DNA of 64,000 nt from Amoebophrya sp. A120 (taxonomy: Eukaryota > Protista > Dinoflagellata): assembly GCA_905178155.1 (NCBI GenBank), contig CAJINV010000002.1:3238515-3302514 (forward strand), written 5' to 3'. A model generated the notes under the pieces. It did not search any database. It was not told where the DNA came from and was given only the letters and a program-made list of their open reading frames with translations. The position numbers and the translations under genes were made by a program. Below, one piece after another: positions 1-59,743 of this stretch (position 1 is the stretch's first letter; each line of letters starts with the position of its first letter).

Positions 1-16
1 TACCAGCACAGGAGGC

Positions 17-3000
17 ATGGAAATAGCGAGTCCAAGAACAGACGACGATGAAGAAGGAGACCAACCAGAAGAGAAATACAGCAAGCAAAAACAATCTGAA
101 TACCCACTGACCCTCTTTCTCCCGGGCACGGGCAACATTAACTGGCAGGTCCCTGGCTGTCCCTGGTCCGGCGGGTTCGAGCTGTTGACGAATAAGAACA
201 AGCTCTTCAACAGCTTCTACATCATGCCCTTAATAGAGGACTACCGGTTGGAATCGGATATGGCGTTCTCAACTGTTACATCCTCAAGTGTTGCGATTGA
301 TTTGTGATGCAAGAGTGGAAAAAGTGAACGGGTTTACCTTGCGCGTCTTGCATGACAGATTTGGCACAGATTGTCAGCCTGCTTGGCGGCCCTCTGAGAA
401 TTTGCCATGCGAAGCAGCTTGCTGGTGTCGGTTCTGAACGTAATTTTGCATGACAAATCACGCAACAGGAACAGCTGAGAATGTAACATTTGAGAACGCC
501 ATATCGGATATGGTTTACATCGAGGACTCCTACGGACACTATCGGTACTATGAATTGCAACAGCAATATCGTACTAGTACTAGAACTTTGCAATCACGCA
601 TTACAAATCTTTTTCTCAAGGGAAATCAGCATTACAAATTTTATTTCTCATGCTGAGGAAATCGAAATTTGTAATGCATTTATACGAGTGCGATACTTTT
701 GCAATCCATAGGTACTGCGAGAAGACGATTGAACTGCTATTGAAACACGCTGTGCAGCATATCGAGGCGAATGCAGTATCCCGAGCAATAAAAGCATCGC
801 GATTGCACTCGTATAGAACAAGATCGCAGTCGTGCATGACGAATCTCCCTCCTTTAGGTGAATCAGCATGACAAATTCATCCACTTTCCGACTTGAAAAA
901 AATTGTAAATATATGCATTTTAGAGGTAGTCGTGCCATGCTTTAGCTTTTGCGATGCATCCGCCGCAATCAACTACAACTGTTACCTCGACTATGAGAAA
1001 TTCTACCTAACTGGCATCTCCATGGGCGGCACTGGGTGCTGGCAAATTCTGGCGCACTGCGGGAAATATTTCGCCGCTTGTGTTCCGATAGTTGGGAACC
1101 CGGATTGGGGCGTGACTGGGAAACGGATGGACTTGAACTTTGGGGTATACGGATTGACGGTAGGGTACAACGAGGAGGATTTTCTTGATCCGGCGGAAGT
1201 AGACACAGCGCGGACGGGAATAGCTGTTGCACCTACTTCGAGTGGTGTTGTTGATGGTGCTAATATTGCGACAGGTGGCGCAACAGGAGTCGAGCCTGCA
1301 ATTGTGCTGGCACAGCATCCCCATAATAAACCGGAGCCCGACCCCTTCGGATTCGATGCAGAATCCCTTCCAGACGACGACGCAGACCCAGAAGTTGCGA
1401 AAATCGTGGAGAAATTGCGGAGTAGAAGTTCCTCAAAGTGCACTAACATCTCCTGCGTCGACGAGCTTGAAACAGATTGTCATGCCGACACGCATGGTGC
1501 AGCTCCCTCCGATTGTCTTGACCACAACGCATCGGAACGGAACTGGTCCAATTTGGTCGGGAAATTGGTGGCGTCATTTTCCTCCAGTGCGACAGCATCT
1601 GAGGCAGCAGTTTCAGGGACAAGTTCTTCTTCAACTTCTACGAGAAGCAAGAACTTGTTCACGACGAGCAGCGGCAGCGTCACAACGACTTCCCTCAGCG
1701 GCCCGATCTCGATTTTCGAGCAAACTTTGGCGGCACTAGCGGAGATCTTCCTCAGTCGGCTGTTGCAAGGGACAGGACGAGGACGACGAGGACCGCGTTC
1801 ATCCGGGGACCAATCAGCATCTTCGGAGGACGATCATGTGGGCGGAGATTCTTCACGGCCGCAGTCTACAGATGCGCACGTCGCAACCTCCGTGGCAGTA
1901 GCTCCGGGCGAGAATCATGAAGAGAGCACGGGACGAGGACGACCTCCAAACGACCCGAACAACAAACACTCGAACAGCAATTCTGCGCTCCTCTCCTGCT
2001 TCGAGGCCGCCGCAGCAACTACGAAGCTTCCCATCAACACGCTCGTGCACCAGATTCAAGAAGACGGGGTCACAGTTTATAACCTGCTCAGGTGTTACAA
2101 TCTCAAACGTTACAATAGAATGTCGAAATCTGTGATGCAAGAGTGCGTGATCTAGCCAACGCTCATAGGATTGCGCATGACAAGTTCCGGAGCCCCAAAC
2201 CCCACTACAATCTGGCAAAATTTGTATTGCAAAACGTGGAACGCTGTGCGAGTCTGTCATGCTCATCATGCAACAATGCGGCATACACAATGCCATCCCC
2301 GCAGCAGCACAGTCTGTTTATGTCATGCTCATCATGCAACACAAATTCCAGATTCTATTGTAACGTTTGAGATTGTAACATCTGAGCGGGCCATACAGTT
2401 GTGATCCAGAAATCGGTCCGGGCTTTGCTCGCGAAGTTGCAAAAAGAAAACAGAAATAGAGCGAGGACCTCCAAGAGCGGTGTTGAAAAGGAGACGAATT
2501 TTGTGGAGCAGCAGCAATCTTACTACCAGAGAGCAGCACCCCTCATCCCCCCCCTTCCGCCGAAAAACTACTGGCCATATGAAGTAGATCTTCAAGAAGA
2601 TGATTCTACTTGTGCCGAAAAAGAAAACGTCAACACCAAACCTCTTTCCTTCGAAGAAAACTTCCAGTATTGCGGGATCTACCAAATTAACGTGAAAAAC
2701 GACATATGCCTTGCAAAAGTGTCGTGGTGCTTTACGTTGTTGCGTAAATCGCATGACAAATTTTTTCCCAAGAGAAAATGGAATTTGTAATGCTGATTTG
2801 GCAGCTAAGAGTAAGAAACAAGATTTGTCATGATGCGTGATTATTTCAGTAATTAGTACGAGTGCGATACTTTTGCAGAGCATACGACGTTCGGATTTGC
2901 CGCCCGCAGCGGCAGCACGTGGAACGGGACATGTGGTTTTTGGCGAACGCGCAACACAAGTTACCGGTACCTCCAGAGAAGGACCTTTACGAAGATTCCA

Positions 3001-4235
3001 CGGGAGAGCTACCCGGGATGCTGCCGGCGCCGGCCACTTCTTCTTCTTCTTCTTCTTTCGCAGGGGGTCGTGAAGATGGATCTTCTCCTACGCATGCTGA
3101 CCTTCTTGTTGGGGCGCCATCTTCTGTTCTCCCTGAAGGTCCTGAAGCTGCGAATGATGAAGCCTCCCGACGACCAGCTGGTCGCGATCATCGCATATGG
3201 AAGCGGCAGGTTTGAAATCGACAAAGTAGAAATGATTTGCCATGCATAAAATGCAAGGCATGCAGTGCCTGCCTTGCCGGGATGGCAAGTGAGGCCGATT
3301 GTGAGCCTGCTAAAGTAGCATGACAAAAGCAGTCTTCTGTGCCCAAACAGCATGGCAAAGTGGATTCCGGTGCTCGGTAAATTTGTCATGGGCCACTTGA
3401 TAGGTGGGCTTCCGACTGGTATCGGTTTTATGCATGACAAACTATTCCAACTTTGACGATTTCAATCCTGACACTCCCATATCGCAAGTCCCTGAAGTAC
3501 TGGAAACGATCCTTTCGGACACCAACAGAGGCAGAAAAACCGAACTGCCTCAAATATTCTGAGTAAAAACATCCCCACCCCAGAGTTGTCGTGCGAATCT
3601 GCATACCAAAAATGTTTCTCATGCGGAGCCCCATGCGAAGCATAATTTTTTCGACGTGTTTTAGTAGAATTTGTGATGCTCATCTTAGCATGATATGAGA
3701 GATGTGTGATGCTGCTGAACTAGCTAAGTAGGACTATACTACGAGGACAAAATTGTCATGCGAAAGAGCCAAAGGTGGTTGATTTGTCTAGCAGATTTTC
3801 CAACTTGACTATGGGGTGGGGACGTTTTTGCCCAGGATACCAAGTACACTTTCCTTGAAATCCAGGAGGATCCCATGGAAGACTGGCCGGACTGGCCAGA
3901 TCAGCACTGCGTCTGGTTCCGGGCGTATCAGTACGAGGAGTGGGAAGTTTACAAGTTCTTGGCGCAACATATCAAAAGTATACGTGTTATACGTATAACA
4001 GTTTTCACACATTGCAGTCATGCGTCACAAATGTAGCCCACTATGCATGCTATGCATGACAAATTTTGGCACGTTTAGTGATGCATTAGCATTGCTGCGT
4101 GACAAATTCCGTATAACGTTAATACAACTTTTTCCTGCGATACAACACAGATTACCGACGGAGAAGGCGGCGGGGAATAAGCAGGAACTTTTGCGGGACT
4201 CTATAGCGATGGGATGTGGGGTGGTGGTTGAATAG
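17..4235 (+). CDS. Alpha/beta-hydrolase (predicted peptidase/carboxylesterase-like), 9 exons, possibly 5'-truncated
   Basis: After removing 8 introners (1873 nt) the CDS is 782 codons. Motifs: YPLTLFLPGTG, nucleophile elbow FYLTGISMGGTGCW...FAACVPIVG, C-terminal KYTF...HCVWFRAY. The frame is open back to the window start. Confidence 0.75.
259..503. mobile_element. Introner, family A
   Basis: TIR TATGGCGTTCTC; DR TCGGA. Confidence 0.9.
549..710. mobile_element. Introner, family B
   Basis: TIR TATGAATTGCAA; DR GGTAC. Confidence 0.9.
777..960. mobile_element. Degenerate introner, family B
   Basis: Decayed TIR; DR TGCAG/CGCCG; ends uncertain. Confidence 0.6.
2078..2395. mobile_element. Introner, family D
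   Basis: TIR with GTTACAATCTCAAACGTTAC; DR CAGTT; internal duplication. Confidence 0.9.
2705..2884. mobile_element. Introner, family B
   Basis: DR CGACA/CGACG. Confidence 0.85.
3196..3481. mobile_element. Introner, family E
   Basis: TIR TATGGGAGTGTCAGG type; DR TCGCA. Confidence 0.9.
3555..3839. mobile_element. Introner, family F
   Basis: TIR TATYCTGAGTAAAAAC; DR TCAAA/CCAAG. Confidence 0.85.
3970..4142. mobile_element. Introner, family G
   Basis: TATC...GATA ends; DR CAACA. Confidence 0.85.
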
Positions 4236-5358: not shown

Positions 5359-8300
5359 ATGTTTCCTTCGACCAATGCTCCGAACCTGGCGGGAGGTTGT
5401 ACTACTTCCAGCTCGTCTTCTTTCTCCAACCTCCCCCATCAACCACCGATATTAAACACATCGCCCGACGACATTATCAGCAGTCATTTTGAAAAACAGA
5501 AGGAATATGATGAATCCCGGCGGGCAGTTGCTGGTCGACGACCTTCTGTAGGGCAAGAGGATGAAGCTCTTGGTGTCCAAGCAGAACTGGAAAAATCTTC
5601 AGGAGCGACGAGTAGAACTTCTTCTGGTCCGACCGGAGGGGGAGGTACTAGAACTAGCAACAGACATAAAACCAAGTCCGACACCACTCCCTACTACCAA
5701 GACCTTCTTCTCACTTTCGCCTTCTACAAGGCGTTCCAACCGGAGCACGCGTGGAAGGCGTTTTCGAGACAGTGTTCGAAGGTGGCCGCGACGGATATGG
5801 GATTCTCAAACGTTAAGTACACTCTTAACTGTTACATGGATTTGTCATGCAAAACTACCTTAAGCTGCCAGATGGTCAAGCGGCTACGCATGACAAATCT
5901 CCGAAGGGCTAAACAGGACGCAAATCTGTGCCAAATCTGTAATACGAAAGCAGCAAGCTTGTTTCTTCGGTTGTTGCTGTTCTTACATTACAAATTCATG
6001 TAACGGCTGAGAGCGACGTAACGTTTGAGAACGTCATAACGGACTTGGTCGATGTGCTTCGAAAGTACAAGAACAGCAACACAGAGGACTCCCCTTCTAC
6101 AACCACTACTACATTCACCTCCGAGGATTTCTTCGCCGATCTTTCTGATATCGTGGACAAGAACCAGATTCCGTTGTTCAACGAGGTCACCGTAAATAGC
6201 GAAGAGTTGATAACTGGGCTACATGAAGAATTCTACCACACTCAGGAAAGGGAAGATTTTTCGTTTTCCGAGGAAGAAAATGAAGATGACAAGAACATCC
6301 CGACCAAGGTAAAGAACGGCGCAGGTGGACGAGCAAATAGCAATATTACACGACCCACCAGTACAACTACTACAGTGAAGATCCCCTGGATTGAAGCCCT
6401 GTACGAGTCGGTCGAGAAGATCCAACTGCTTCGGACGCACCTGATTACCGTTGAGTCTGACACAAATTGGAATCTGGCAGTGGAGGAAGAAAATTTGAAA
6501 ATGTTCTACCAGATCGAATACCAACTGCAAATATTCCTGGATGTCTGGAAGGATGCAAACTTGTGATGCGCATTTCACATCGCAGGAAAACCTCTCATGC
6601 ATGGACAGCGATAAAGAATGCGCATGCCCATTTCTTGTGACCGAAAGCGAAACAGGTGATCTGTCATGCGGATTAGGCATTAGGAAGCCAAGCCTTCTCA
6701 ACAAGATTTGTGATGCTAGACCCGTACTCCATACCTTCTGGGGCATCCAAAACCTGCATGACAAAGCTGGCAATCTTCCAGACATCCAGGGATATTTATT
6801 GCAGTTGATATCGAAAAGTTAAAAGACGTGGACGAAAGCGACAAATCCCGGTCGACGACGTACGAAGCTCCGAGGTCCATCCTGCACACCGTCGCGGATA
6901 TTGTGCTTAAGGTGGACAAGAATTTAGAAGGTGTTGAGAAGGCGGACGAGAAAAATCACACGATTTTGGATTTCTACCACCTGGTGTCGCTCATGAAGGA
7001 AACGGATCTGCAGACCAACTGGCTCCCCATGGTGTTGGGGTACGGAACGGAATTATCGACGGCGGTGGAGAAGAAAGACCCGCGAATTTCACTCAACGGG
7101 TTTTGCAACAGTTTGGTCGGGTATTGGAGCTTGAACATGCCGTTCCTGACCAGAAGAGACCTCCTGGCGAAGATGGAGGTGTACCACAGTGAGCAAATGA
7201 ATAACTCTGGCGCACCTTGTAGTTCTCCTGGTGGTGCATCTGGTACTGGTAGTACAACGATCCCGGGGTCGACATTTCAGCAGATTGTGTTGGCGGAATC
7301 CGTGTCCGTGAACGATTTAGCGGATCCCATCGAAGCCGTGGCGAAATTTCCGAATTTGCTGTCCGAATTCAACAACGTGGTGCTGGATATCAAATGCAAA
7401 TATGTCTGGGTCTGGAAGAGTCCGAGTTTGTCATGCTAAATCTGATCGACACAAAAATCTGTATTTCGGGACCAGCAAAAGTCCTCACGTTTGGTTACCA
7501 GAAGGCGGCATTTCTCATGCGCATTCAGCATTGAAGGGCCTTCTCAAAACTTGTGATGCTAGTGCTCACATTCCAGACCTTCTGGCTCATGCGAAAGCTG
7601 CATGACAAAGCTTGCATCTTCCAGACCCAGACACTTTTGCACTTGATACTCGAAGAGGTAGAGCAGGAAGTAGCCGGGTTGAGTGTGACGGACGTGGAGA
7701 AGATGGAGAGGAAAAAAAAATCGAAATCTCCAAAAAACGGATCGAAGAACAGCGTGACTGGTGGGTCAACCACTTCGAGGAAAAGTTCACGGAGTTCCAC
7801 TAGCAGCGCGCCCGGGAAAGCGGTATTGAAGGTGCCGATCGGGAAATATTTGTTGCCGACAGCGAGAGCGTCGTCACCATCGTCACAGCAAAGACCGCCG
7901 TTGGGCGGGCAAGTAGAAGTACAGGCAGGACGAGCTATATCTTCCGGAACTGTAGCGGATTTTCCTGGTTCATCACCCAGTAGATCGCCGAACAATAAAC
8001 CGAAGCTGAAACCCTCTCCCACCTTCGTGGAAGACACGGGATTTCATTCCATGGTGCACACCGGCCACGCCAACATGGCAGCGTTGATGGTGTTCGAGAG
8101 GCTGCGGGCCAAGCAGACCGCCCGGTATAAAAGAGGAACAAGCGAAGAGCTGACGTTGTCCGGAGAAGCATCGGGTTTGAAATCTGTGAAAGAGAGGGCC
8201 ATATCCTGAGTAAAAACGTCCCCACCTCATAGTTGTCATGCAGATTTGCAGTCACAGGAAGATTTGTAATGTGCATCCCCATGAGAGGCATTGTAAAAAA

Positions 8301-11300
8301 AATCGTGTTTTGGACTTTGTGATGCCGTAAACAGGATGAGTAGATGGCTTTGTGATGCGGCTGCACTTGCTAAACTGCAGTACAATACAGAGAGGAACTT
8401 GTCATGCGTGACTCCCAAAACTTCTCGGCTTGTGTTGCGAGATTCCCGTCTTGACTCTGGTCCTCTGAGGCCGTTTTTACTCAGGATATGCCAGTGTAGA
8501 GAACTACGAGAATCTACCAGCATCGTCGGTGGAGGAGTTCATCGGGGAACAACAAGCGAGTACCGGCAGGGCGCGAAGTAAGCAACTTCTACCCGTTGAA
8601 CAAAATTACACGACTTCTGGCTGGGCGGGTGGAGTAGTAACTGCAGCAAATCCACCCTCACCGGTAATTTCTTCACCATCATCGAGCAACAGCGGTCGGA
8701 GGCGCGACCCGGAGCGATTCCAGGAGGGAAGACATCGTGGGGAATTAGCTAGTAAAACGTCTTCTGATCATGTAGAAGATGATGTCGATGAGAACAAACT
8801 CCTAGTAGAAGACCAAGACGTTGTATGAGAGTGCACAACTCACCCTCTCGCTCCCCCTCATTTGTATTCCATGAACCAACAGCAATAGAAACACCAGCAC
8901 ACGTGGAGCCTGTGCATGACAAACTCATGCGCCTAGTTTAGGACTGATTGGGCTTCCGGAATCTGTCATGCAAACGGTGCCACAGGGAAGCAGTTGGATT
9001 TGGGGTTTTGCATGACAAATGAGGGGAAGGGGGAGTTGTGCACTGTCATACGTTGAGGTGCTCGATGACGATGAAACCAGCTTTGCGGACTCCCGGTGCG
9101 GGTTCCCCCGATTGCGGATTGTGGGTGGGTATCCAGGAAAAAACACCCATCCTCCCCATCCATTTTTCGCACGACAAATAGTGGATTTTATGCATATTTT
9201 GCATGAGAAATTGGATGGGGATGGGTGTTTTTTCCTGGATAGTGGGCACGGATTCCAATCCTCTTGTGAAGGACTATCAAATGCAGAAATGTCTGGGTCT
9301 GGAAGAATGCAAGTTTGTCATGCTCGTCTGGCATCACTCGAGAATCTGTGTTGCATAGGGACAACAAAGCCCTCTTACCTTTCATGCAAAAACGCAGTTT
9401 GCCATGCGGAATACGTAAGACATGGCAGCCAAAAAATTTGTCATGCATAGCTGCGTATTGCAGTGCGTCTATCATTCACTTTTAGCATTACAAGTTTCCA
9501 GACACAGACATATTTGCAATCCATAAGGACCGAAGTTTGACGACCGCTCCTTGTACGAGCGGTGGCTATGACAGTGCACAACTCCCCCTCGTTCTCATTT
9601 CTCATGCAGAATACCGAATCCACGCCTTCCCCCCTGTCACTATCATGCATGACAAGTTCTGGTAGCCCAAATAGCACTATGCTCCACTGCAAATTTGCCA
9701 TGCAAAACCGGCATTCTTGCTGATGCTTGTATTGCCGTTCATGCTATACAAATGAGGGCGAGGGGGAGTTGTGCACTGTTATACTGGCTGCAGCAAGAGC
9801 AGAAGGAGGTCACCACAGATCCGATTGCAGGAGTAGAGATGGTGAACAATTTAGACGCGATCACAGGAGACGACCGCGACGGAGAAAGTGAAAGCGACAG
9901 CAACGAAGCTCCTCTTGAAGAAGACCCGGTCATTCATTTGGAGCACGGACTCGTGTTATCTGAGTCGGAACTTCTTCTATCGGATAATTTCGAACAACAG
10001 GAAAATTTTGAAGACCTGCAAGAATGGACGTCGTGGGCCTCTTTATCTGCACGACAGGACAAAAAATACGAAACCAAACCAGACGACGACATGTATTACG
10101 CGCACGAGAAAATAAACGATATTTTTGACGCACGCGATGCTGGTTTATTCATTCCAAACGAATCCCACGCTGAACCAGTACAGCATTATTTCAGCGAAGG
10201 CCACCATGGCGCCTCCCGGGACGCGAGCAGTAAGACCTCAAAAACCGGCTCCTCGCCGGACTCCGCACCCGGAGGGCAACAAAGAGCAAGGTCCCGCCCA
10301 CCCCTGGCCGGGCCGGAGGCGGCGCGACTGGACGCGTTTTTGAACGCCGATGAACAGGACCACATTTCGAATCTGTTGGAACAATATGCATTGCAAAAGT
10401 AAAAATATCGTATGAGTAGCTGTAGTAATCGCATCACAAAATCGCGTCGTGCGGTTGTTTTAGCATCACAAAATCGCGTCACAAATTTTTTCAGCATGTG
10501 GCAGACCGCATTTGCAATGCTGATTTGCCTCAGAAAAGAGAACTGTCATGCATGATTGCAATTACTACAACGAGTACTATGATAAAGTAATTTTGCAGGG
10601 GATAAACAAACGCGGCGGAGGTTGGTGCGGCCGGAAGGAGATGTTACGGCCAGTGATGTATCACGAGAAGAAAGTGTTACAGTTACACATTGTGTTGCAA
10701 GACCGGCAACACAGACAACCTTGCTCATGCAGGAAATGCTTGGGAGCCCCGTTTCCTTCCTGTTTTCCCTTATGATCTTTGCATTCCAAGTTCTCTTTCT
10801 CATGCGGAGAAAATTTGTGTTGCTAAAATGACAGCAAGTGTGCAACTGTAACACTTTTTTCTCGTGATATGATGCCGTCGGGAGTTATTTCTCCCCGACA
10901 AGTAGACGGAGCAACAGCAATGTACTAGATCGGAATAGTAGACGAATTACTCCCGGCGCCGCACAGCTCCAAGTACCGGAGGGCGAGCGAGGAGTCAGTC
11001 AGGTTCTTTCCTCGGGCCGCCTTGGCGGCTCGTCTTCAGAGAACGTCGTCGTGTCGCGAGATGAATCGTCGAGGAACGGTGAGAAGACTACTTCGGGGGA
11101 CAAATCCACAGGAAATTTTTATCACCAGTCGAAAATAAATCCGACGCCCCCACAGCAACACCTGGTGCTGAAATACGACGAAGAAGAATTCAACCACGTG
11201 AGGTGTGAAATCGTGAAACAACACAGCAAACCGACCGGGGCTTTGATTACCCCCAACTTCGATAACGACCCGAACCTTATCAAATGTAAAAATGTCTGGG

Positions 11301-48800: not shown

Positions 48801-51800
48801 ATTCCCCAAAAATCCCGCGGCCATGGCCGCCGCCGCAGAAGCATCATTCCCTCCTCCCAGGCCAGCACCGCCCCGCGGCGGCAGCTTTGAACGGACAATC
48901 GAGATTCTGCCGAGGTTGACCTACGGCATCGACGGTGCGTTTGGGGTCAGGGCGAAGCAGGAAGAAGAGTTCAACGATGCCAGGATGGTGTTTTACGATG
49001 CGATGTTCGATTTGGGGAACCAAGGAACCATCAAGCCGTCGCACTTGCCCTTCTCTCCGATAGTGGAAATTCGGCAAAAAAGGATTCCGAGATATGAAAG
49101 ACTTTCGTATAGCAGGCATGCGCATCCGCATGTTGATGCTGAAGACGCCGGCCCGTGGGAGGTAGATGCGGATGCGCTCCCGGAAGGTGCGAGTATGGCA
49201 GAACAAGATGGAGAAGGCGACATGGCGGTAGGAGAGGCACTGACGGAAGATGAGGACATGCAAGAGCAAGAGGAAGATCTTCGGCCTACCCTCCGCGGAC
49301 ACTACGTTGCAGCAGCAGGAGAGGCCCAAGAACAGCGCCATGACCTCGAACAACCTCTACGTCCTCTTCCACGACACAGATATGCGAAAAATCTCCACGG
49401 CGCAGAAGTAGCCACGCAGCAAGATCCCCTCATCGTCGTGCCACCGCAGCCCTTCCCCGCACCCGATGGCACGACAAACAGCCAAGCGTTCCCCGTTGCG
49501 GGCGTCAGGAGATTTCTCACGCGGACGATTGAGAAAAAGCGGGAACAGTTATTGAATCTAGTGAAGAACGCGGTCACGTTGGTTCCGAATGTTTCCGTTA
49601 ATCCTCTGAACATCCGCGAGCAAGCAGCTTCGTACGTCGTCGATCTTTTCCGGTTCCGCGGGGATTTAGACCGGGCGGTTTTGTTAAAAGCCAGTTTGAT
49701 GTCGTTGTTGGATGAAGAAGGACGGAACCTTCATGCTGTAATGCAACAGTTGGCCAGGAAAGTTCTCGCGATAAGCGCAGGCACAAAACAAGTCCAGGCT
49801 TCAACAGCTTCTCCGATCGATTCCTCCGAGTCCCTTCTGTCCACGCAAAGTCAAAAAGACCAGTTGGAAGCCCATGTGAGAGATTTGGTGCATCGCTTGT
49901 TCTTCGCGGAGGACTTAGTATCCCAACCGGGCCAAACGCAGCCACGGCCACCAGCGACCGAGCAGGCGGTTAGCGAAACCTCGATTTTGGAACAGCACAT
50001 CCGTCAGCAGTATTCGGAAGTGGTGAAACTGTACAGCATGCGGAGGCACCGGAGTCGGCAGAGGGTGAAACAGAAGATGGAATTTGAAATGCGGGTACAG
50101 GAAGGAGAGGAACGTCAAACTGGAGCAGACATAACTGCAAAATCTCCTACAGTCTCTCGGCGTGGTGGTGCAGCCACTTCGTCGCGACAGCAGGGTTCAA
50201 TATTTTCGGGCAGTGAAGATGCCTCCCCTGGCGGTACTAGTTCTTCCTCCAGAACCGGATCATCTTGCGCTGGCGGCAGTTCTAGTCCACAACTTTGCAG
50301 CAGCGATAAAGACACCCCATGCTCCTCAGATTTCAAATCTTGTTCGCGGCAAACCAGCGTGCAAAGTAGCTTCACAGGAGCGGGCAGCCCTGCGCTCGGG
50401 CCGAAAAATGCGCCCACGATCGTGTTGCCAGAAGAGGAACAAGCTGAGGAACAAGCCGGTGCGCTTTCTGTTGCAGCAGATACAGGTACAGTAGCATCGC
50501 CAGGACGAGCTTCTGCAGCACCGAGCCGACAACGCTATTTCAATCCCTTCACCGACCAAGAGGTTGGGAAGCCGAAAACCTTGTCCCACGAGCCAACAAG
50601 GGCTTACCCGAGAAAAGTTGTACTTGCCTACGACCCGGATCCAGATGACGTGAGAGAGTTACAAGTGTTTGCGGATAAATACAGACTGCAGTACGAACAG
50701 CAGGCGGAGATTTACGGTGGCGGAGATTATGGGCGGCCCACCGTCACAGCTGAGGAATCAGGCGACGCTGCACCAGCAGGTTCTTCAGACCAGGAGGAGG
50801 CCAAACCCGGCAGCCGGCGCAAGATGAAGAAGCTAGAGCTGTTAGCTTCGAAGTACCACCTGATGCGCGTTTTCGAACTTTCATCCGCTGCACCAGCAGA
50901 AAATAAAGTAGAGTGCTTCACCTGGCAGGCTTGGAAACTGGATGAAGTGGATCATAGTTGGAAGAAAAGTCAAAGTAAATCTTTGATGCAGGATGAAGAT
51001 GCAACATCTTCCGACTCCCCCACTTCCTCGCAGGTGGACAATAATGATCATGCAGAAAAGGTCTACCCAACGCCAAACAGCTCGAAGCCGTCTTCTTTCA
51101 GCATTGCATCTTCCTTTGCCGCTTCTGACGAACGTCATTATCGCGCGACGCACTTGACGGCAAACCAGTTAGAGCAGCTGCACGAGATTCAGTCAAGGAG
51201 GAATAAAACAGAAGATGATATTGCGAGCGATCATGTGGGCGCCGGTTTTTCCTTGCCGGAAGCCGCTATGGATGTGGATGTTGCGACAGAAATTATGCCA
51301 GCTGTTCCCTCTCCGACCGAGTTGGACAACGGTTCTGAGAGGTCTCGTGTAAGAACCGCCACGCCAGATTGGGACAAAATGCAGGTTGAAGTAGATGAGG
51401 AAGTAGCACAATTAGAAAGAAGAGCCCACTCGAAAGAAACCGTCGGCGTTGCGAGTAGCGTCTCTTCCACGACGATGGCCTTCATCAAGGGGATGGATCA
51501 AGGCATGAACGCTGAGATGCAATCTGTGGTTTCTGACTCCGCGGTGTCTTCACCGAAACACTTGAGTAGTAGCGCAGCGGGCTCTTCTGTGGCGAACAGC
51601 AAGCCGCAATCACCGCAGCATAGCTGTTTACGAAACTACAATGTCGAGGAAGCAGGAACTGCGGAGAGTAACAAACGCAAAAACGGACCTTCTCTCGTTG
51701 CAGAACCCGCCGACGAACTTTCCAACCTGGAACGGGAGTTCATCACGCTCGCCCGATTACTCGACCAAGCGACCATGCACTTGCTCCATGTGGAATTGCT

Positions 51801-54800
51801 GGAGCGAAAATTGATTGAAGTTTCGTATCTCGTGAATTACAACGAATTGGAGGGAATCCGGCAGAACAATCATCTCCATTCCTTCTGGCTCTACCCCACG
51901 ATTTGGGTCCAAAACCACTTCAACATCGTTCTAGACCAACTGGAACTCTACCAATCCGTGCAGAAAACGTCGGAACTTTTCTTCGAAGGTATCCTCAGTG
52001 AATTTCCCGTACCCGACTAAAAAATGCGGCTTCAGCATGACAAAACTTGCCTCCGATCCTAGTTAGAGCATTGCAAGTGTTCTTACACTGCAAGTTGGCA
52101 AAATTTGTGATGCCTTTTGTACGTCGTGCCCGGGAAATTTGTATTGCATAGAGGGGAGCGATAGCCTACTAGCAAACCGGATCCCCAAGTCGGAAGTTAT
52201 GGCGCACAACGAGAACCACTTGCTCGCTTTGGAGATTTTTCAGTTCATGATGGGGGCAGATAAAGGGAGTTCTATGCGGGGGGAACACATGATGCACCAG
52301 CAGGAGCAGGAGGAACCCCATGATAATAGAGAAGCTTCTTCAACATCAACAGCGATCACTTCTGTTGGCGAGGTTCACTCCATGTTCCATTTACTCACAA
52401 AAGACCACAGCGCGACACTAGGGAACAAACAGTTGAAAATCACGCACAAATCTTGGTCGAGCTTTGGCACGATGGAGAAGATCTACGGTGGGTTCGTCGA
52501 GTGGATGGCGGCGCAGCATCAACAGCAGAAAGTTGTACTAGCGGACCCAAATCTGCACTCTCAATCGTCAGCAACGAAGGATTTTACCGTTTTCCATCTG
52601 TTTTATCAAGGGATTTCTGAGGGGTGGAGGAGGCGTTTCATGCTCCCGGAAGAAACGGCGAGAGGCATTTGCGGGAAAAAAACGGTAAAAATTGCAGGCG
52701 GCGGAGGATCAGGATCTTCCGTAATATCAGCGACGTCCATTGCATCAGCGACCACTTGCGGCTCCCGTGCGATGACAACCGCATTGATGAATGGGATTTC
52801 GAAAATCGGCAGCACCAAAAGCAGCGCGGCCACGGCGGTGTCGATGTTGGAAGGGAAGACGAAAGGAACATCTTCAAACAAGCCCCCAGGAACTACAAGC
52901 GATAGTAACATCAACTTGAGCACAAATAATCTTGTTCCCCCCCACGAGCTCCATTTCTCCAAAGTGACGAACTTCATCGTGACCGAAATCCAGAAATTCG
53001 TTGAGCCGAAACATGCGGACATTGAGCGGAGATCGAAACTAGAACTCCTGCATTTCCGGAAGCATTTTGATTTCCAACATTTTCTCGCCTACGTCACCGG
53101 GCCGGAGTTTTTGATTGCGAGTTTAGGTCATGAGTTCAAATCGCATATGCCAGCGGAGTATGTTGTAGATGAGGAAGGGGCGTCTGGTCTTCCGGTCGCT
53201 TCTCGGACCTTGGATTTGAACAATTCTGACACTTCTACTTCCACTGGTTTACAGTACGACGTGATCACCGAGGCGATTAAAGCGACATCAGATAAAGACA
53301 TGGACAAAATCGCGGAAGCGCTGGCGTTGGAGTTAGAAAGAGAGCAGGACCGGATAGAAAAGTTGAGCCTGCTGGAAAGAAATCTAGAGCAGATCAAAGG
53401 AGAGATGGACGAGAAGGCAGTAGGAGACGAGGAGGACTCAACAGATGAACTTGGTGCCGGGAATAGCAGATCTTCTCCGACGGAAGTTGCTGACAAAGCA
53501 AGACAAAAGTTTTTAAATCCACCGGCCGCGCTCGATCTCCAAACCGCTTTGACCCAAGCACCCGCGGAGAGTTTGTCTGAGAAAACACAGCAGACGAAGG
53601 CGGGCATTATTCAGAGTTTGCTCCAGCGGAAATACGCGGTTGCGCCACGACCTGGTGTAACACCTGCTGCAGGTGGAGGTCTGGTTTTGCCTCCCATTCC
53701 GAAGTTGTTTGATGAAAGAGCTAGTTCGACGTCCACAGGTTCTGCGTCTATAGCTCGACCTCTGCCCGCGTTGCCGCCGGCTGCTGGAGCTCCTGCGGAG
53801 AATGGTGCTCCTAACGCAGGAGAAGGAGAAGGCCCTTCCGCTGCTGGCAATGTCACCGTCGCCGCACCAGGGCCACGGCTACTGAAGCCGCCCAGTCCGG
53901 AGCTTTTGGCAGAATGGAAAAAGAGGAGAGAAACTGCGGTTGCGTCGAAATTGCCTCCGCCACCGGTAGGATCTTCGAAGAATGGGGGAGGTGATCTTGC
54001 GCCGGAAATCCCCCCTTTGCCGGTCTCGCTACCTGGAGGAGGTGATGAAGAAGATTCTACTTCAAGAACTAGCGTTCTTGCGTTGCCGACAAGCAACACG
54101 ACGCGCTCCTCGAGTGGTGCAACTACTGCTGCAGAGATGGCAGCCTTCGCTTTTGAATGGGAAAAGAAGGCGGCACTGGAGTTCCAACAGGGGCAACGGG
54201 ACGAGAGTGAAGTTGGAGAGGAAGCTGCTGCAGCTTCATCGACGATGAACGTGAACAGCAGTCTTTCAACACCGGACGGGATTTTTCCGCCAGTGAACAG
54301 CAGTCTATTCAACAAAAAAGCATTAGCGTTAGCGTTTTGGCATTTGCTGGCGAAAGCCAAATTTTTTTTCATTCTAGCTAGTGACGTAGCTGTGTTCCGT
54401 TCAGACAGAACCGCGCTAACTGGAAGCAGTGGAAGCAGTCTCTTCGGCCGAGAAGCGGATCGGAGATGATACCGCCAAAGATGTGGGCGACGGCTAGGCC
54501 GTGCACATGTCTGGGGCTTCAGGGACTTCCGGCTACGCGACCTCCTGGCCATGCGGGGGGCTGGCAAGCCGTCGCTCTTGGAGTGCCTGAAGACCCGTTT
54601 TTGGCTTGCGGCCTTTGAGCCCGAGCAAGATGATCAAGCTTCCCAAAGTCTGGCATTAGCGTTTCTGTCCTCGGAGGTCATTTTGACCCCCTGAGCAGAG
54701 GCGAAATTGCATGGTCGCAAAAGAAAACGCTAATAAACTCATGATAGCGTCGGAGGAGCGTCTCTCTTCTCAGGTTCACAAAAAACGCTAATAAACTCAT

Positions 54801-57800
54801 GGTAGCGTCGGGGAGCCTCTCACGAAAGAAAAGACGCACTTTTGTAAGTTCACAACTTCCCCACGCTATCATGAGTTTATTAGCGTTTTTTGAGCCTTGG
54901 CATAAGTTTACATTTTCCGCACGCTATCAAGAGTTTATTAGCGTTTTTTTTTGCGACCGTGCAAAAGTGCAGGACTTCGGCAAGAAGTCTTTGGGTATTT
55001 TGCTGGTCCCCCCGAAGGCGCTAATGGACGCCGGGTCGGAGCTCCAACCTGCGCTCCATCAAGCTGCTGTGGCGGGTGGGGCGCTTGTTTGAATGATATT
55101 GGATAGCAATCTTTCGTCTGAACGGAAAATAGCCGACTCGACATGCAAAATCAAAAAAAAAATCGTTTGTTCGAACAAATCTCAAAATATCCCACGAAAA
55201 TAACCCATCCCCATCGTAATTGCTATTTTTTTTGCAAAAAACGCTAAAAAAAATTGAAAAAAAAACAAAAAAATTGCTACCCATGCGGAAGGGCTTCGTG
55301 GTGTTAGCTAGCACGTGACGACTATGACAGAAGCAGCCTGAGACGATTCATCTAGAAGTGTTTGCTTTGAATTAGCTAGCTCAAGGCATCCCCGGCGAAG
55401 CCGCGACAACAAAGCCACCGAAAGATGGGCGTCAGACAGGGAGACAGCGCCGGCTACGGATACGCTTTAGGGCCGTCAGGGCCGTTGGTTTGCTTGCTTT
55501 TTCCCACATCACCGTCGCCATGTCTGCTTGCCACCACATCGCGACCATAGATGAAAGCCCGTGACCTGTTTTGTCCGTCGTTTTGGCCTCAATAGGTCGG
55601 CGAAAATTACCCATCCGGACAAATTTTTGCGACTTTTGAGCTTTTCGGATTTTTTCCGCAAATATCTGTTCAAAAAACCGGAAAAAATCAGATTTTTCTT
55701 TTTTTTGGCAAATTTCTTCAAAATTCCGAAAATGCAGAAAAATCTATCACGATGGGTTATTTTCGCCGACCTGTATAGGCAAAAAAGCCTACTTTTTTCG
55801 AAAAGTGGTCCGATTTTGATTTATCTGGATGGGTTATTTTCACCCGACCTGAGTCGGGCAAAAAGTTGCTCTTTTTTTGCTTCAAAGCCGGCTTTTTTGG
55901 GAAAAAAAAACTTGGGTTTTCGGGGTATACGGGTCGGCGAAAATAACCCATCCAGATGATTTGCAAAGTTTCGCTATTTTACAAAACCCCAAAAAAGGCG
56001 AGCAAAAAGCGCGCGCCTGCCCCGACCTGAGTCCGTTGATTTGGCGATTTTTTTTCTTTCAAAAAAGTAAACACTCTGAGCGACATTTTAGCCGGACTCA
56101 GGTCGGGGCAGGCGCGAGCTTTTTGCTCGCCTTTTTTGGGTTTTTGAAAAGTCACGAAATTTTGCAAATCATCTGGATGGGTTATTTTCGCCGACCTGTA
56201 TACCCCGAAAACCCCAGTTTTTTTTTTACAAAAAAGCCGGCTTTGAAGCAAAAAAAGAGCAACTTTTTGCCCGACTCAGGTCGGGCGAAAATAACCCATC
56301 CAGATAAATCAAAATCGGGCCACTTTTCGAAAAAAGTAGGCTTTTTAGCCTATACAGGTCGGCGAAAATAACCCATCGTGATAGATTTTTGGTCGATTTT
56401 TGATTTTGGCGAAAAATTGGAATTTTTTTGAATTTCTTCGCTTGCGTCTGCCCTCAACCATTTTTGCCGGACCTCCATTTCTGGACAAGCCAGGTGACCA
56501 GTTGCGCGACCATTCCGTCGCCGCGGACGCGGCCTAATTAGGGGCCAGGGAGGCGGAGGATAGGGCGGCCGCCCTTCCGGCGCGAAGCGGGCCTGTGCGG
56601 CCCTCCCGGAGGCCGCCGGCGCGCAGGACCTTCCGCGCCGCCACCGACCACGACCAGGAGCGCGGCCGCAGACCACGAGGAAGGGCCGCGCCCTCGGGAC
56701 AGAGACATTGCTGGCGGTTCTTCCCTGAGGATGCCTGGAGCTAGCTACTTTATTCACATCATCACTAGCGATTCCTCTCAAGCCGGCTGTTCTGACTAGT
56801 TATCACGAAGCTAACTGACGCCACGACTTTTTTTTTCGCAAAAAAAAATCAGAAAAGTCGCATTTTTTTTTAATTTTTTTGTTTATTTTAATTTATTTTT
56901 TTGCACCGTAAAAATGGCAATTACGATGGGGATGGGTTATTTTCGTGGGATACAAAACGCTAACGCTAATACTTTTTTGTTGGATACAGTCTTTCAACAC
57001 CGGACGGGATTCCGCCAGTGCCAACAGGTACTGGTGCAGAAACTTCTTCTGCAACGACAACTTCCGGCAGCAGTGCGGCTAAGCCAGCAGCAGGTTCAAA
57101 GAAAGGCACTAAGGAAAATAAAGAGAAGGCTAAGGCTGCCAAGAGCAATGGTGGGAATGGAAATGGGAACAACAACAAAGTCGGTGGAAAGCAGAGTACT
57201 ACTAGTAGGGAAAAGCAACCAGCAGACGGAACATCAACTTTAGCTGCAACCACAGCAGAAAATATTAACCAAGACAGCGGCGCCCCTTCTCTCGGCACCA
57301 GTCCCATTTCCGACATCATTTCCGTTCTTCACAATTTCGCGAAAAACCTCTTTCAAGAGTTCACCGAGCAGGACGATTTGAAATTCCTCCTATGAGAGTG
57401 CACAACCCTCCCTCCCCCTTATTTGTGTAGCATGGACGGCAATTATACAATTGCCAGCAAGAATGCCGGCTGTGCATGACAAATTTGCACACGAGTGTAG
57501 TGCTGTTTGGGCTTCCGGAGTTTGTGGTCATCCAAACAGTGCAAAGAGACGCAGTGCCTGGATTTGGTGTTTTGCATGACAAATGAGGGGGAGGGGGGGT
57601 TGTGCACTGTCATTCCTCCGGAAAGACATCGCGAACTTCTTGCGTAACGGGGTGTTGTGGGTCTGGTGGCGAAGAATTTACCTCGTGTTGGAGCACATTG
57701 GGCTTTCCGAAGTGTTGCAGACCTTCGCGCAGGAATATTTGTGGGAACAGACGACTACCGGTTTGCAGCAAGAAAATAGTACCAAAGGGAACAAGAAAAG

Positions 57801-59743
57801 TGGTGCTAAACCCCCACTGCAATTGCCGCAGTTAATCTCGATGCACTTTATCCCACCAGACCCCAATAGCTCACACGACTGCTCCATGTTTCTAGCGGCG
57901 GACGGAGACAAAGCTTCTTCACCGTCATCGTCCGCTGCCGCATCTACTTCACAAACCGATTTGTCCTCGTCGAACAAACGTCTTTCCAGCAAACCAGGCT
58001 CCAGTCCAGACCTGCGGAAGAAGATACAAGAGAACAACCAGGGCATCCCCGCAACGGCACAACCATCTGCGGATGTTACCGCAACTGCAGAGGCGCTTGG
58101 CATTGCGAATCCGCATATGGTGAAATCTGTAACCGCCTACAGCTATGGCAGAGACCACGAAGCGGATGAGGACCACGATGTTAATAGCCGTAGTGCTAGT
58201 GGCCGTGGCGCAGCCGCGGAAGATGGAAAAACAAACGGCGAACAGCAACAGCAAAACTGGCAACCCTGCACGGGCCCGCATTTGAACGCGAGAAAATATC
58301 GAAATTCCAACGCTCTGAGGCTCAGATTTCTACTCCCCTCTGACCTCCTTTCCGCAGAACAACTAGGGAAAGTGGTTTATTCCACCAAAGCACCAACGCT
58401 GACCCGGGCTGCTGGTGGTGGGGGTGCTGTAGGATCAGCCGCAGGAGCTACTGGTGGAAATAGTGGCAGTACTAAAGGTAACAGTAAAGAGAAGAACAAG
58501 ACGGGTGCTGGGGCAACTACTGCTCCATCTACTGCAGACAGTACCAACACGCTCCTGCCGAAGTCCGCCCAAGTGGTCGACGTTTATCTCAAACACGAAT
58601 TGGTCAACGGGTACGTGCGGAAGGTTCTGAGCGAGCAGTTGCGGTTAGAAGTGAGGACAGTGGTGGAGAGGACACAGCAAGCAGTCGAGTTAGCCGGGGA
58701 CGCGAATTATGAACTGCAAAAACATCGTACTAGTAGTAATTGCAATACAAATTAACTCAGCATGACACATGGAATTTGTCATGCTGTTTTGCCTTGGGAT
58801 AGAGATATGTAATGCATGACTGCGATTACTACGAGCGCGATACTTTTGCACAGGATACAAATGCAGAGCGGGGGGAGAGAGTTCGGTGGACCAGCCCGAC
58901 GGAAAAATATATCACCAGTTTGGCGGATGCGGTATCATTCGTGTTTTGCTGGACAAAGTTTTTGTCATGCATTTTCTTCATTTTCACAGTCTCTGACTTG
59001 TACAAGATCATGAGAGACTACATCTGCAATGCACGTTTGTGTTACATAGCGAAGTTACCCAACTTTTCAACAATTCAGGTCTACTACTCCCTCGAGTTCG
59101 ACGAGGTCATTGACGCGTTTCTGGAGCACCTTCGCGGTGACCCACACCAATCCGCAGACCACTGGATTTCTGTTGCTTCGTCCAACTTCGGGAAGGCGAT
59201 CGACGCCATCTATGGGGAGGAAGAAAATGTACCACCAGGACCAGCGAAGGGACAAGGACAACAAAATGCGGGTAATCATCAACATACAGGCTCATCTTCT
59301 CCCAACCTCAACCCGCACGCGTCGAAGGACCAGTTGCTGAACTTATTGAAGTATGAATTGCAAAAGTACTTTAGCCTTAGCCTTACTACTACTAGTAGAA
59401 AGCGCATGACATCAAATAATCTTCTCAGCGTATTAACACATGGAATTTGTAATGCGGGTCTGCCTTAACAACGGGATTTGTAATGCATACCGACGATCAC
59501 TACGATCACGATACTTTTGCAATGCATATGAAGCAGGAAATCACCAAACACGGGGTCATCCACGGAAACCATGCACAGGCACTGCAGAACATGCGGGGCG
59601 TGAATTCGGGACAGAGCTACGGGGTGCCCCACCACGTTCTCCCCGCGGTAGTGGCCAGTCCGGGGGCGTTTGCGCTCTACCAGTGGAACCTGCACTTCTT
59701 CACGTTATTGACGAGTCACGTTTTCATGTTGGGGGATTTTTGA
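30854..59743 (+). CDS. Giant low-complexity (S/A/G/Q/T-rich) protein of ~6,985 aa, 26 exons, function unknown
   Basis: Removing 25 insertions (7932 nt, including the 2.7-kb nested element) from the 28,890-nt span leaves 6986 codons, and flanking ORF pieces join in frame. The single-gene model depends on the 2.7-kb element being removed. Confidence 0.6.
32020..32324. mobile_element. Introner, family E
   Basis: Long TIR; DR GGCGC. Confidence 0.9.
32729..32990. mobile_element. Introner, family H
   Basis: DR GTGGT. Confidence 0.9.
35171..35324. mobile_element. Introner, family M
   Basis: Homologous to 45804; DR decayed (CGTCG/AGTTT, or AGTCG 6 nt further). Confidence 0.8.
36299..36549. mobile_element. 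Introner, family H
   Basis: DR GAAGC. Confidence 0.9.
38355..38505. mobile_element. Introner, family B
   Basis: DR GACCA. Confidence 0.9.
38612..38865. mobile_element. Introner, family H
   Basis: DR GGAGG. Confidence 0.9.
38947..39188. mobile_element. Introner, family A
   Basis: DR GCGAA/GCCAA. Confidence 0.9.
39429..39702. mobile_element. Introner, family H (reverse of the 16609 type)
   Basis: DR CGGAT/CGGAC. Confidence 0.9.
39750..39938. mobile_element. Introner, family B
   Basis: DR AAGAT/AAGAC. Confidence 0.85.
43037..43246. mobile_element. Introner, family L
   Basis: TIR TATSCAAGAAAAAAACTGTGT; DR AGGAG/AAGAA. Confidence 0.9.
43760..43874. mobile_element. Introner, family I
   Basis: TIR TATCCACAGAARAAAACCCA; DR GTGGA. 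Confidence 0.9.
43963..44140. mobile_element. Introner, family B (diverged)
   Basis: DR CGCAC/CGCAG. Confidence 0.8.
45484..45738. mobile_element. Introner, family D (reverse of 2078)
   Basis: DR GCCCA. Confidence 0.9.
45804..45954. mobile_element. Introner, family M
   Basis: DR CGGGT. Confidence 0.9.
46096..46383. mobile_element. Introner, family F
   Basis: DR AGTTC/CGTTC. Confidence 0.9.
46473..46628. mobile_element. Introner, family B
   Basis: DR CATAA. Confidence 0.85.
47556..47876. mobile_element. Introner, family N
   Basis: TIR TATCA..AAAAATCCCCCTCCCCATAT; DR CTTGC. Confidence 0.9.
47978..48240. mobile_element. Introner, family H
   Basis: Clear TIR; DR decayed ACCCG/GTTCG. Confidence 0.85.
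48311..48563. mobile_element. Introner, family H
   Basis: DR TACTG/CACTG. Confidence 0.9.
51990..52150. mobile_element. Introner, family M (reverse)
   Basis: DR GAAGG/GAGGG. Confidence 0.9.
55188..56952. mobile_element. Nested 1,765-bp foldback element inserted in the right TIR of the outer element
   Basis: TIR TATCCCACGAAAATAACCCATCCCCATCGTAATTGC; DR CAAAA at 55183-55187 and 56953-56957; degenerate arms over 200 bp; no transposase ORF recognised. Confidence 0.9.
55738..56390. repeat. ~298-bp-arm inverted repeat with ~57-nt loop
   Basis: 55738-56035 is a near-perfect reverse complement of 56093-56390. Confidence 0.9.
57391..57614. mobile_element. Introner, family C
   Basis: DR CCTCC; right end mutated to CATT. 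Confidence 0.9.
58708..58857. mobile_element. Introner, family B
   Basis: DR CGAAT/CAAAT. Confidence 0.9.
58932..59078 (+). other. 147-nt GT-AG intron with introner-like features
   Basis: GCG|gtatca...ttcag|GTC; contains TTGTCATGC. It is in-frame and stop-free, so intron status rests on composition. Confidence 0.6.
59352..59528. mobile_element. Introner, family B
   Basis: DR TGAAG. Confidence 0.9.

What the first reader, a model, noticed from the sequence alone, without database searches (positions are those of the whole stretch)
259..59533. Genes riddled with ~74 TIR elements that must be removed by non-GT-AG splicing or excision
Seen: the elements start TA(T/C), mostly end ATA, carry family-specific TIRs and sit between 5-nt direct repeats (45 of 74 perfect by my count). 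Deleting element plus one repeat gives exact codon multiples in all six affected genes (782, 1532, 747, 632, 219, 6986 codons), including conserved CFIm25. Known: repeated non-canonical introns with inverted and direct repeats have been published for Amoebophrya, so the phenomenon itself is not new. Inference: a uniform TAT...ATA plus 5-nt DR rule across ~15 families implies one mobilising enzyme class and one removal mechanism that ignores GT/AG.
Basis: partly seen in the sequence, partly recalled or inferred. Interest (0 to 1): 0.85.

Follow-up and report, generated by a model that had tools for sequence, protein, structure and literature searches.

The report
Transposon introns spliced without GT-AG
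These are already-published transposon-derived introns of the marine parasite Amoebophrya A120; here they stay in the DNA and are missing from the RNA, and the junctions fit one fixed cut position, which suggests the cell's splicing machine likely reads a minimal 'TA' start signal and likely places the end cut by distance instead of at AG.

Summary
Observation confirmed: 74 TA(T)...ATA inverted-repeat elements with 5-nt flanking repeats (46 perfect) interrupt six genes. The gene 3 model equals an annotated Amoebophrya sp. A120 protein at 746/746 residues, so these are the introner elements of Farhat et al. 2021; the phenomenon and the TAT motif are in print. A DNA-type run keeps the elements; RNA-type runs lack element+5 nt at 34 of the 57 elements laid in full, and none of the listed gene-spanning RNA contigs retains one. 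Only 4 of 73 can be read as GT/GC-AG. Added here and not found in my searches: 13 imperfect repeats agree on a single register, intron = N+TA...ATA+NNNN. In 240 strand-called elements the donor T(+2) is invariant (240/240), +1 G and final AG are at background, A(-7) is kept in 238/240, and the stems show no G-U excess. Best reading: non-autonomous DNA transposons removed by a relaxed spliceosome with an NTA donor and a distance-set acceptor (about 0.6). A hairpin-cutting nuclease/ligase is the main rival. No transposase was found.

The parts
2..4235 (+). Gene 1 (5' end outside window; weak Peptidase_S9 hit below cut-off), 8 elements: 259-503, 549-710, 777-960, 2078-2395, 2705-2884, 3196-3481, 3555-3839, 3970-4142
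   Evidence: RNA contigs X3/X6 are 804 nt across five elements, as predicted
5359..14666 (+). Gene 2 (1531 aa), 20 elements: 5796-6038, 6519-6810, 7388-7648, 8202-8488, 8824-9050, 9130-9241, 9275-9525, 9567-9783, 10385-10604, 10659-10869, 11278-11544, 11590-11809, 11852-12159, 12212-12465, 12524-12700, 12754-12898, 13431-13585, 13663-13878, 13914-14183, 14303-14581
   Evidence: 3 direct joints plus 468-nt and 677-nt length matches
15312..21744 (+). Gene 3 (746 aa, identical to A120 protein P0001), 16 elements: 15702-15885, 16376-16529, 16609-16873, 16922-17273, 17666-17916, 18027-18178, 18246-18480, 18612-18897, 18943-19170, 19239-19499, 19550-19812, 19878-20067, 20540-20735, 20782-21043, 21123-21294, 21372-21562; GT-AG introns 16005-16245 and 20210-20438
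   Evidence: 10 element joints and the 16005 intron in X6; 746/746 identity
22838..25298 (+). Gene 4 (631 aa), 3 elements: 23037-23298, 23558-23682, 24680-24842
   Evidence: frame only, no RNA laid
28493..30109 (+). Gene 6 (218 aa, NUDIX_2), 2 elements: 29408-29687, 29741-29946; inferred GT-AG intron 28864-29327
   Evidence: frame only
30854..59743 (+). Gene 7 (about 6985 aa), 24 top-level elements: 32020-32324, 32729-32990, 35171-35324, 36299-36549, 38355-38505, 38612-38865, 38947-39188, 39429-39702, 39750-39938, 43037-43246, 43760-43874, 43963-44140, 45484-45738, 45804-45954, 46096-46383, 46473-46628, 47556-47876, 47978-48240, 48311-48563, 51990-52150, 54306-56986, 57391-57614, 58708-58857, 59352-59528
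   Evidence: 3 low-depth joints in X6
777..960 (+). Decayed element (ends ATC, repeats TGCAG/CGCCG, fold z -1.5); RNA uses the left repeat copy at position 4, a lower bound on the register
   Evidence: RNA pieces start at 965 in X3 and X6 (partner piece not listed)
15702..15885 (+). Element with repeats CGGAG/CGCTG; joint 15700>15890; lower bound on the register
18612..18897 (+). Element with repeats AGGCC/GGGCA; joint 18607>18899; position 1 from the left copy and position 5 from the right; upper bound on the register
19878..20067 (+). Element with repeats GCTCT/GCTCA; position 5 from the right copy; upper bound on the register
   Evidence: X6 loose end behind 19876; residue T in P0001
21123..21294 (+). 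Decayed element (TAA...ATA, repeats CGGAG/TTCAG) that looks like a GT-AG intron; the GT-AG reading (178 nt) shifts the frame and the 177-nt removal keeps it
   Evidence: P0001 and the A25 orthologue P0002 read QQAEWGKS
54306..56986 (+). 2681-nt element, 34-nt inverted ends, perfect CAGTC repeats, no transposase frame found
   Evidence: an X6 contig ends at 54280, exactly where the spliced form makes a 31-mer branch: indirect
55188..56952 (.). 1765-nt element nested in the long one, perfect CAAAA repeats, 86-nt inverted ends, internal 327-nt inverted repeat

Best explanation
These are introner elements of Amoebophrya sp. A120 that stay in the DNA and are absent from the RNA, with junctions that fit one register, likely cut out by a relaxed spliceosome that likely reads only T(+2)A(+3) at the donor and likely sets the acceptor by distance. 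Shown: ends, 5-nt repeats, both orientations, retention in a DNA-type run, loss of element+5 nt in RNA-type runs. Well supported but resting on 13 sites: the intron is the last base of the left repeat + TA(T)...ATA + the first four bases of the right repeat, so the donor is N-T-A and the last four intron bases are free. Inferred for birth: an unidentified DDE transposase, possibly integrase-like, inserts non-autonomous TA-ended elements with a 5-bp target duplication; because both ends read TAT inward, either orientation offers a usable donor and the message is restored to the base. Inferred for removal: fold-back of the ends brings the two sites together, the spliceosome accepts any base at +1, and it cuts 7 nt after the conserved first A of ATA, which is a candidate branch nucleotide (about 0.3, untested).
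For: RNA removal: 16 two-sided joints of exactly element+5 and 18 more elements by exact length of contig gaps (804, 468, 677 nt); the same runs lack the GT-AG intron 16005-16245. DNA run X1 has unbroken contigs at depth 39-48 across 777, 13431, 13914 and 15702. Register: with k = repeat bases kept from the left copy, k=4 fits 13 of 13 informative sites, k=3 and k=5 fit 11, k=0 fits 1; chance 0.0016 if k were uniform per element. The prediction was noted before the second lay; its three new joints fit but only bound k loosely. Oriented signals: window, donor TA 74/74 and acceptor A(-7) 74/74. Independent set of 170 strand-called elements from a second assembly, variants at donor vs mirror end: position 1, 0 vs 3; position 2, 1 vs 4; position 3, 6 vs 2; p=0.04. 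Pooled 240 short elements: 0 vs 5, 1 vs 6, 13 vs 2; p=7e-5. No general strand bias in substitutions (A>G 314 vs T>C 320) and no G-U excess in stems (38 vs 36; 102 vs 113). G at +1 is 52 vs 53.2 expected and AG at the end 14 vs 14.9 expected, of 170. All 9 A120 and all 9 A25 'predominant' non-canonical sites in Farhat Table S4 have T at +2. Prp8, SF3B1-5, U2AF, Slu7 and U2/U4/U5/U6 are reported in A120, U1 snRNA is not.
Against: No lariat, branch-point or spliceosome data. The upper bound k<=4 rests on two sites, both in gene 3; the lower bound k>=4 rests on two, one of them one-sided. RNA evidence is assembled contigs from runs whose RNA nature is a guess (2 samples, 1 study); contigs drop minor isoforms, so rarer registers would be missed. 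P0001 may not be independent of those runs. A(-7) is G in 2 of 240, and one donor reads TTT. The bases before A(-7) do not match the yUnAy branch consensus (recalled), and donor +5 is not G-enriched (90 vs 100 of 240), so normal U2 and U6 pairing is not evident. A codon-likelihood test of the register on 33 imperfect repeats was uninformative apart from one stop codon that fits. 66 of 72 elements fold far better than shuffles, which fits a structure-cutting enzyme equally well. No transposase found.
Confidence: 0.6

Rival explanations
1. A non-spliceosomal nuclease plus ligase recognises the RNA hairpin and cuts 1 nt before and 4 nt after the stem, as proposed for euglenid and diplonemid non-conventional introns.
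For: Strong fold-back in 66 of 72 elements, median z -7.5; free +1 and free acceptor; U1 snRNA not found; euglenid introns have an offset stem and form circles.
Against: No G-U over A-C excess in the sense strand; elements 777 and 15702 with weak folds (z -1.5, -1.6) are still removed exactly; the donor-specific T(+2)A(+3) matches the host's canonical GTA starts (4 of 5 canonical introns).
Confidence: 0.25
2. The spliceosome removes the elements but the cut floats within the direct repeat, as the published figure legend says ('variable'); k=4 is only the commonest or a small-sample effect.
For: Only 4 of the 13 sites bound k tightly; 22 of 41 repeat mismatches in the window are synonymous by my hand count, which floating cuts would favour (about 44% expected under a fixed cut, my estimate).
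Against: No conflict among 13 sites; 21123 is not cut at the AG one base away; the end asymmetry is position-specific.
Confidence: 0.1
3. The elements are excised from DNA like ciliate IESs in some life stage.
For: TA-bounded ends; only one DNA-type sample was laid, and its joint table was truncated.
Against: X1 contigs run unbroken through four elements at single-copy depth; the runs lacking elements also lack a GT-AG intron and differ about 240-fold in depth on gene 3; register and end conservation follow the direction of transcription.
Confidence: 0.03
4. The junctions are reverse-transcriptase template switches across hairpins between direct repeats.
For: Hairpin plus direct repeat is the known signature of such artefacts.
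Against: 43 of 73 removals are not multiples of 3 and all are needed for the frames; the A25 orthologue is collinear without them; 777 shares only 1 base at the joint; 10 successive elements are gone in one contig of depth 652.
Confidence: 0.02

Closest known systems
Amoebophrya A120 introner elements (Farhat et al. 2021, PMC7789003)
   Same: Same organism and elements: TAT+7nt+AAA inverted motif, 3-5-nt direct repeats, about 240 nt, non-canonical RNA-supported junctions.
   Different: The paper's text reports no clear splice signature and an unknown, variable border; here one register, an NTA donor and a conserved A(-7). Its logos and Figs S19-S25 could not be seen.
Fritillaria borealis MITE-derived non-canonical introns
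   Same: TIR+TSD transposon introns removed by an adapted spliceosome.
   Different: There the sites are mostly AG-AC/AG-AT, with U1 retained and U2AF duplicated; here T(+2) is kept, the acceptor has no preferred bases, and U1 snRNA is reported missing.
Micromonas, Aureococcus, Symbiodinium and Polarella introners
   Same: Non-autonomous elements whose splice sites are recruited from element end and target duplication with no change to the message.
   Different: They need GY and AG from the element or target; these need neither.
Euglenid and diplonemid non-conventional introns
   Same: End-to-end pairing with an offset stem, repeats at the junction, no GT-AG.
   Different: Those are reported as R|Y-bordered and circularised; circles were not tested here and borders are base-free except T(+2)A(+3).
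IS3EU/GingerRoot and Ginger2/TDD integrase-like DNA transposons
   Same: IS3EU/GingerRoot have TA..TA termini; TDD-4/5 make 5-bp duplications. An A120 introner family with TIRs and Copia/Gypsy-like frames is published.
   Different: IS3EU/GingerRoot usually make 6-bp duplications and Ginger ends are TGT; neither matches both features, and no transposase was seen.

Membership tests
Amoebophrya A120 introner elements | Host is Amoebophrya sp. A120 | tested here: met
   gene 3 model identical to P0001, 746/746
Amoebophrya A120 introner elements | Inverted repeat starting TAT, 7 variable bases, then AAA | tested here: met
   position counts over 146 ends: TAT at 1-3, A-rich at 11-14; definition
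Amoebophrya A120 introner elements | 3-5-nt direct repeats at the borders | tested here: met
   5 nt, perfect in 46 of 74 and in 265 of 336 in the second assembly
Amoebophrya A120 introner elements | Repeated in the genome; removed from RNA at non-canonical sites | tested here: met
   summed element depth up to about 100,000 vs about 45 unique in X1; joints in X3/X6; 4 of 73 readable as GT/GC-AG
Non-autonomous TIR DNA transposon (MITE-like) | TIRs, fixed-length target duplication, both orientations, no coding capacity | tested here: met
   nested copy with its own 5-nt repeats
Non-autonomous TIR DNA transposon (MITE-like) | Cognate autonomous transposase and empty orthologous sites | not testable with these tools
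   no genome held; second-assembly records not searchable; no locus orthologous to the window
U2-type spliceosomal intron | GT/GC donor and AG acceptor | tested here: not met
   GT 21 of 73, AG 5 of 73; at background in 170 more
U2-type spliceosomal intron | T at +2, purine at +3 | tested here: met
   240/240 and 239/240, donor-specific; assumes the k=4 register
U2-type spliceosomal intron | Branch point and lariat intermediate | not testable with these tools
   only contigs available for this strain; A(-7) conserved in 238/240 is a hint
IS3EU/GingerRoot | TA..TA termini | tested here: met
IS3EU/GingerRoot | 6-bp target duplication | tested here: not met
   length 6 perfect in 1 of 73 and 0 of 336
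Ginger1/Ginger2 | TGTNR termini | tested here: not met
Ciliate-type IES | Absent from somatic DNA | tested here: inconclusive
   present in the one DNA-type sample laid; other stages not tested
Euglenid non-conventional intron | Excised as circular RNA | not testable with these tools
   no raw reads for this strain (X9 laid 2 reads)

The most novel reading that the evidence does not exclude
Amoebophrya has a spliceosome that needs neither +1 G nor an acceptor dinucleotide: it takes N-T-A from one transposon end, branches at the first A of ATA at the other end and cuts 7 nt downstream by ruler, so any TAT-ended transposon with a 5-bp duplication is a perfect intron in either orientation at any site; A25's TTA-starting elements would follow the same donor rule.
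Probability: 0.3. Interest if true: 0.85.

Novelty: already known. Interest (0 to 1): 0.5.

Why it matters
The elements are known, but how they are removed is stated as open in the source paper and a 2024 review. A fixed register turns 'hundreds of splice motifs' into one rule, predicts where lariats should branch, allows re-annotation of about 30,000 introns, and would explain why insertion is nearly free of cost in coding exons. If the spliceosome is responsible, it would be a natural case of splicing with no acceptor sequence and no +1 G.

Tried and rejected
No own genome held. 15 of 18 elements in 35001-54400 had no bridging contig listed, which says nothing either way; the sharp predictions for 35171, 39429, 39750, 43037 and 43963 stayed untested. 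Full-length proteins of genes 1 and 7 were not retrieved. Transposase: none in the 2.7-kb element (stop-to-stop frames inside it up to 172 aa, two scanned against Pfam with no hit); five elements over 450 nt in the second assembly have frames of at most 149 aa and look like secondary insertions. Main TIR absent from viral contigs. No Rfam or tRNA hits. GCATGAC as branch point: rejected as a general signal, since its position is variable, it lies on both strands, and it is absent from the long element and from 3 of 5 canonical introns. RNA-stem selection through G-U pairs: not seen. Acceptor-side conservation of the T-tract at TIR positions 11-14: not significant. Codon-likelihood register test: uninformative. 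Earlier scan notes: none. snRNA sequences in Farhat Figs S14-S18 are images and could not be read, so U2/U6 covariation is untested.

Full report
1. Observation. The elements are real. An unbiased scan found 61 inverted-end/perfect-5-nt-repeat pairs, 28 of them TAT..ATA, against 0-3 in three shuffles. A relaxed scan gave 70 candidates; I dropped 7 as false or mis-bounded and added 11 by hand, giving 74: 73 top-level and one nested. 46 of 74 have perfect 5-nt repeats, and no other repeat length from 3 to 9 shows signal. They cover 30% of the window, all top-level ones lie in coding frames, and none lies in 9.9 kb of intergenic DNA where about 22 would be expected. Removing element+5 nt restores frames of 786, 1531, 746, 631, 218 and 6985 aa; 43 of 73 removals are not multiples of three. 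Families occur in both orientations.

2. Identity. The first exon of gene 3 hit an Amoebophrya sp. A120 protein at 100%. My model, with 16 elements and 2 canonical introns removed, equals it at 746/746 residues, and the A25 orthologue (70% identical) is collinear at the six junctions shown. Farhat et al. 2021 (PMC7789003; passages, sections 11 and 12, supplement passages and Table S4/S6 rows seen; figures not seen) describe these introner elements, including the TAT+7+AAA motif, and state that no clear splice signature was found and that the border is variable or unknown.

3. DNA or RNA. Run X1 behaves as DNA: unique depth about 45, elements at very high summed depth, unbroken contigs through elements 777, 13431, 13914, 15702 and the GT-AG intron at 16005. 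Runs X3 and X6 are labelled RNA only by guess, but they lack that GT-AG intron and differ about 240-fold on gene 3. Of 39 elements wholly in 1-20000, 13 show two-sided joints of exactly element+5, 18 more are removed by exact contig arithmetic (804, 468, 677 nt), 2 show one side, and 6 are not in the truncated tables. Of 18 in 35001-54400, 3 are bridged and 15 have no bridging contig listed. For the 2.7-kb element, an X6 contig stops at 54280, exactly where the spliced but not the genomic form creates a 31-mer branch; this is indirect. Only 4 of 73 can be slid to GT/GC-AG with the same product.

4. Register. Where the two repeat copies differ, the message shows which copy was kept. With k the number of bases kept from the left copy, 11 RNA sites and 2 protein-only sites give intervals that meet only at k=4 (13 of 13; k=3 and k=5 fit 11). 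Two sites set the lower bound (777, 15702) and two the upper (18612, 19878). The intron is therefore N-TA(T)...ATA-NNNN. Element 21123 is telling: it offers GT...AG, but that reading shifts the frame, while the 177-nt removal gives the annotated and orthologous sequence. The sample is small and contigs hide minor forms.

5. What is read. A TIR search found the same families in a second assembly: 146 loci, 336 elements, 265 with perfect 5-nt repeats, none orthologous to the window. Ends were detected without using the first three bases and strands were called from flanking coding potential; 170 of 331 elements with adequate TIRs passed, and I excluded a few mis-bounded hits with 3/5 repeats and two or more end changes. 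Variants at donor vs mirror end were 0 vs 3, 1 vs 4 and 6 vs 2 at positions 1-3 (p=0.04), replicating the window; pooled over 240 short elements 0 vs 5, 1 vs 6, 13 vs 2 (p=7e-5). The window scan required a TA start, but the restored frames show no variant start was missed. There is no general strand bias and no G-U excess in the stems. G at +1 and AG at the end are at background. So T(+2), nearly always A(+3), and mostly A(-7) are kept according to transcription direction. Exceptions: two G(-7) and one TTT donor. All 18 'predominant' non-canonical sites in Farhat Table S4 have T at +2, though how their aligner placed ambiguous joints is unknown to me.

6. Mechanism. Shown: anatomy, DNA retention in one sample, RNA removal. 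Supported: one register and an NTA donor. Inferred: the spliceosome does the cutting, because T(+2) is the spliceosomal invariant (established knowledge), the host's canonical introns mostly start GTA, the machinery is reported present without U1 snRNA, and weakly folding elements are still removed. The acceptor must be set by geometry; distance-set acceptors are known for U12 introns and fused branch/acceptor motifs in Giardia and Trichomonas (recalled; search gave no paper I read). A(-7) as branch point is a guess: its context does not match the branch consensus and +5 G is not enriched. A hairpin nuclease/ligase remains possible (66 of 72 fold strongly). Birth by a DDE transposase is inferred from TIRs, a fixed 5-bp duplication, both orientations and nesting. 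TA..TA ends match IS3EU/GingerRoot but the duplication length does not (PMC10045372 passages); TDD-4/5 have 5 bp but Ginger ends are TGT (PMC2836005 passages). Gozashti 2025 (PMC12130899, passages and section 6; datasets not read) reports an A120 TIR family with integrase-like frames and assigns A120 introners to several transposon classes, so 'one enzyme' is not established.

7. Novelty. The system is in print. I did not find the fixed register, the oriented T(+2)/A(-7) conservation or the lack of G-U bias in searches, or in passages of PMC11282704, PMC9860276, PMC11453091, PMC12621601 and bioRxiv 2025.08.15.670264. Farhat Fig. [quoted passage not shown] The template-switch rival is from PMC4176328 passages.

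8. Verdict. Real, already known as a phenomenon, removed at RNA level; a sharper and directly testable splice rule is added. Interest 0.5.

Noticed in passing
all 72 short elements: Motif GCAYNASA occurs on both strands in 72 of 72 short elements (about 14/kb vs 0.7/kb in exons and intergenic DNA), with about 10.4-nt phasing; with one element per family p is about 0.01 at fixed period and 0.13 when the period is scanned. Possibly transposase or chromatin-protein sites on DNA; absent from the 2.7-kb element.
   Followed up: partly
window 13650-13883: Element 13663 ends CTTCCAGA instead of ...GATA, identical to the 8 bases before the left repeat, giving a 13-nt direct repeat; looks like conversion from the exon.
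   Followed up: partly
window 54251-54305 and 56987-57020: Tandem duplication of about 42 nt of coding sequence at the insertion site of the long element.
   Followed up: partly
window 26587-27428: The GT-AG intron of RPL31 holds half an element (about 26927-27116) between two copies of a 86-105-nt stretch; RPL31 has no element in its exons.
   Followed up: no
window 30854-59743: A frame of about 6985 aa, low in complexity; the two largest exons have no Pfam hit, one was searched for relatives with no full-length hit; patchy low-depth cover in X6 only.
   Followed up: partly
window 60200-62500: GC-rich non-coding-looking stretch with short inverted and direct repeats and GC-driven frames on both strands without Pfam hits; no TAT..ATA ends found.
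   Followed up: partly
L058 3997-4725: About 690-nt insert inside an element, with an A-rich tail and a 19-nt direct repeat, like a retro-insertion.
   Followed up: no
L067 4690-5560: About 870-nt GC-rich insert with GAGAGG/CCTCTC repeats inside an element.
   Followed up: no
window, exons between elements: 26 of 64 exons between adjacent elements are 28-74 nt, none shorter than 28; elements cluster in gene parts rather than spreading evenly.
   Followed up: no
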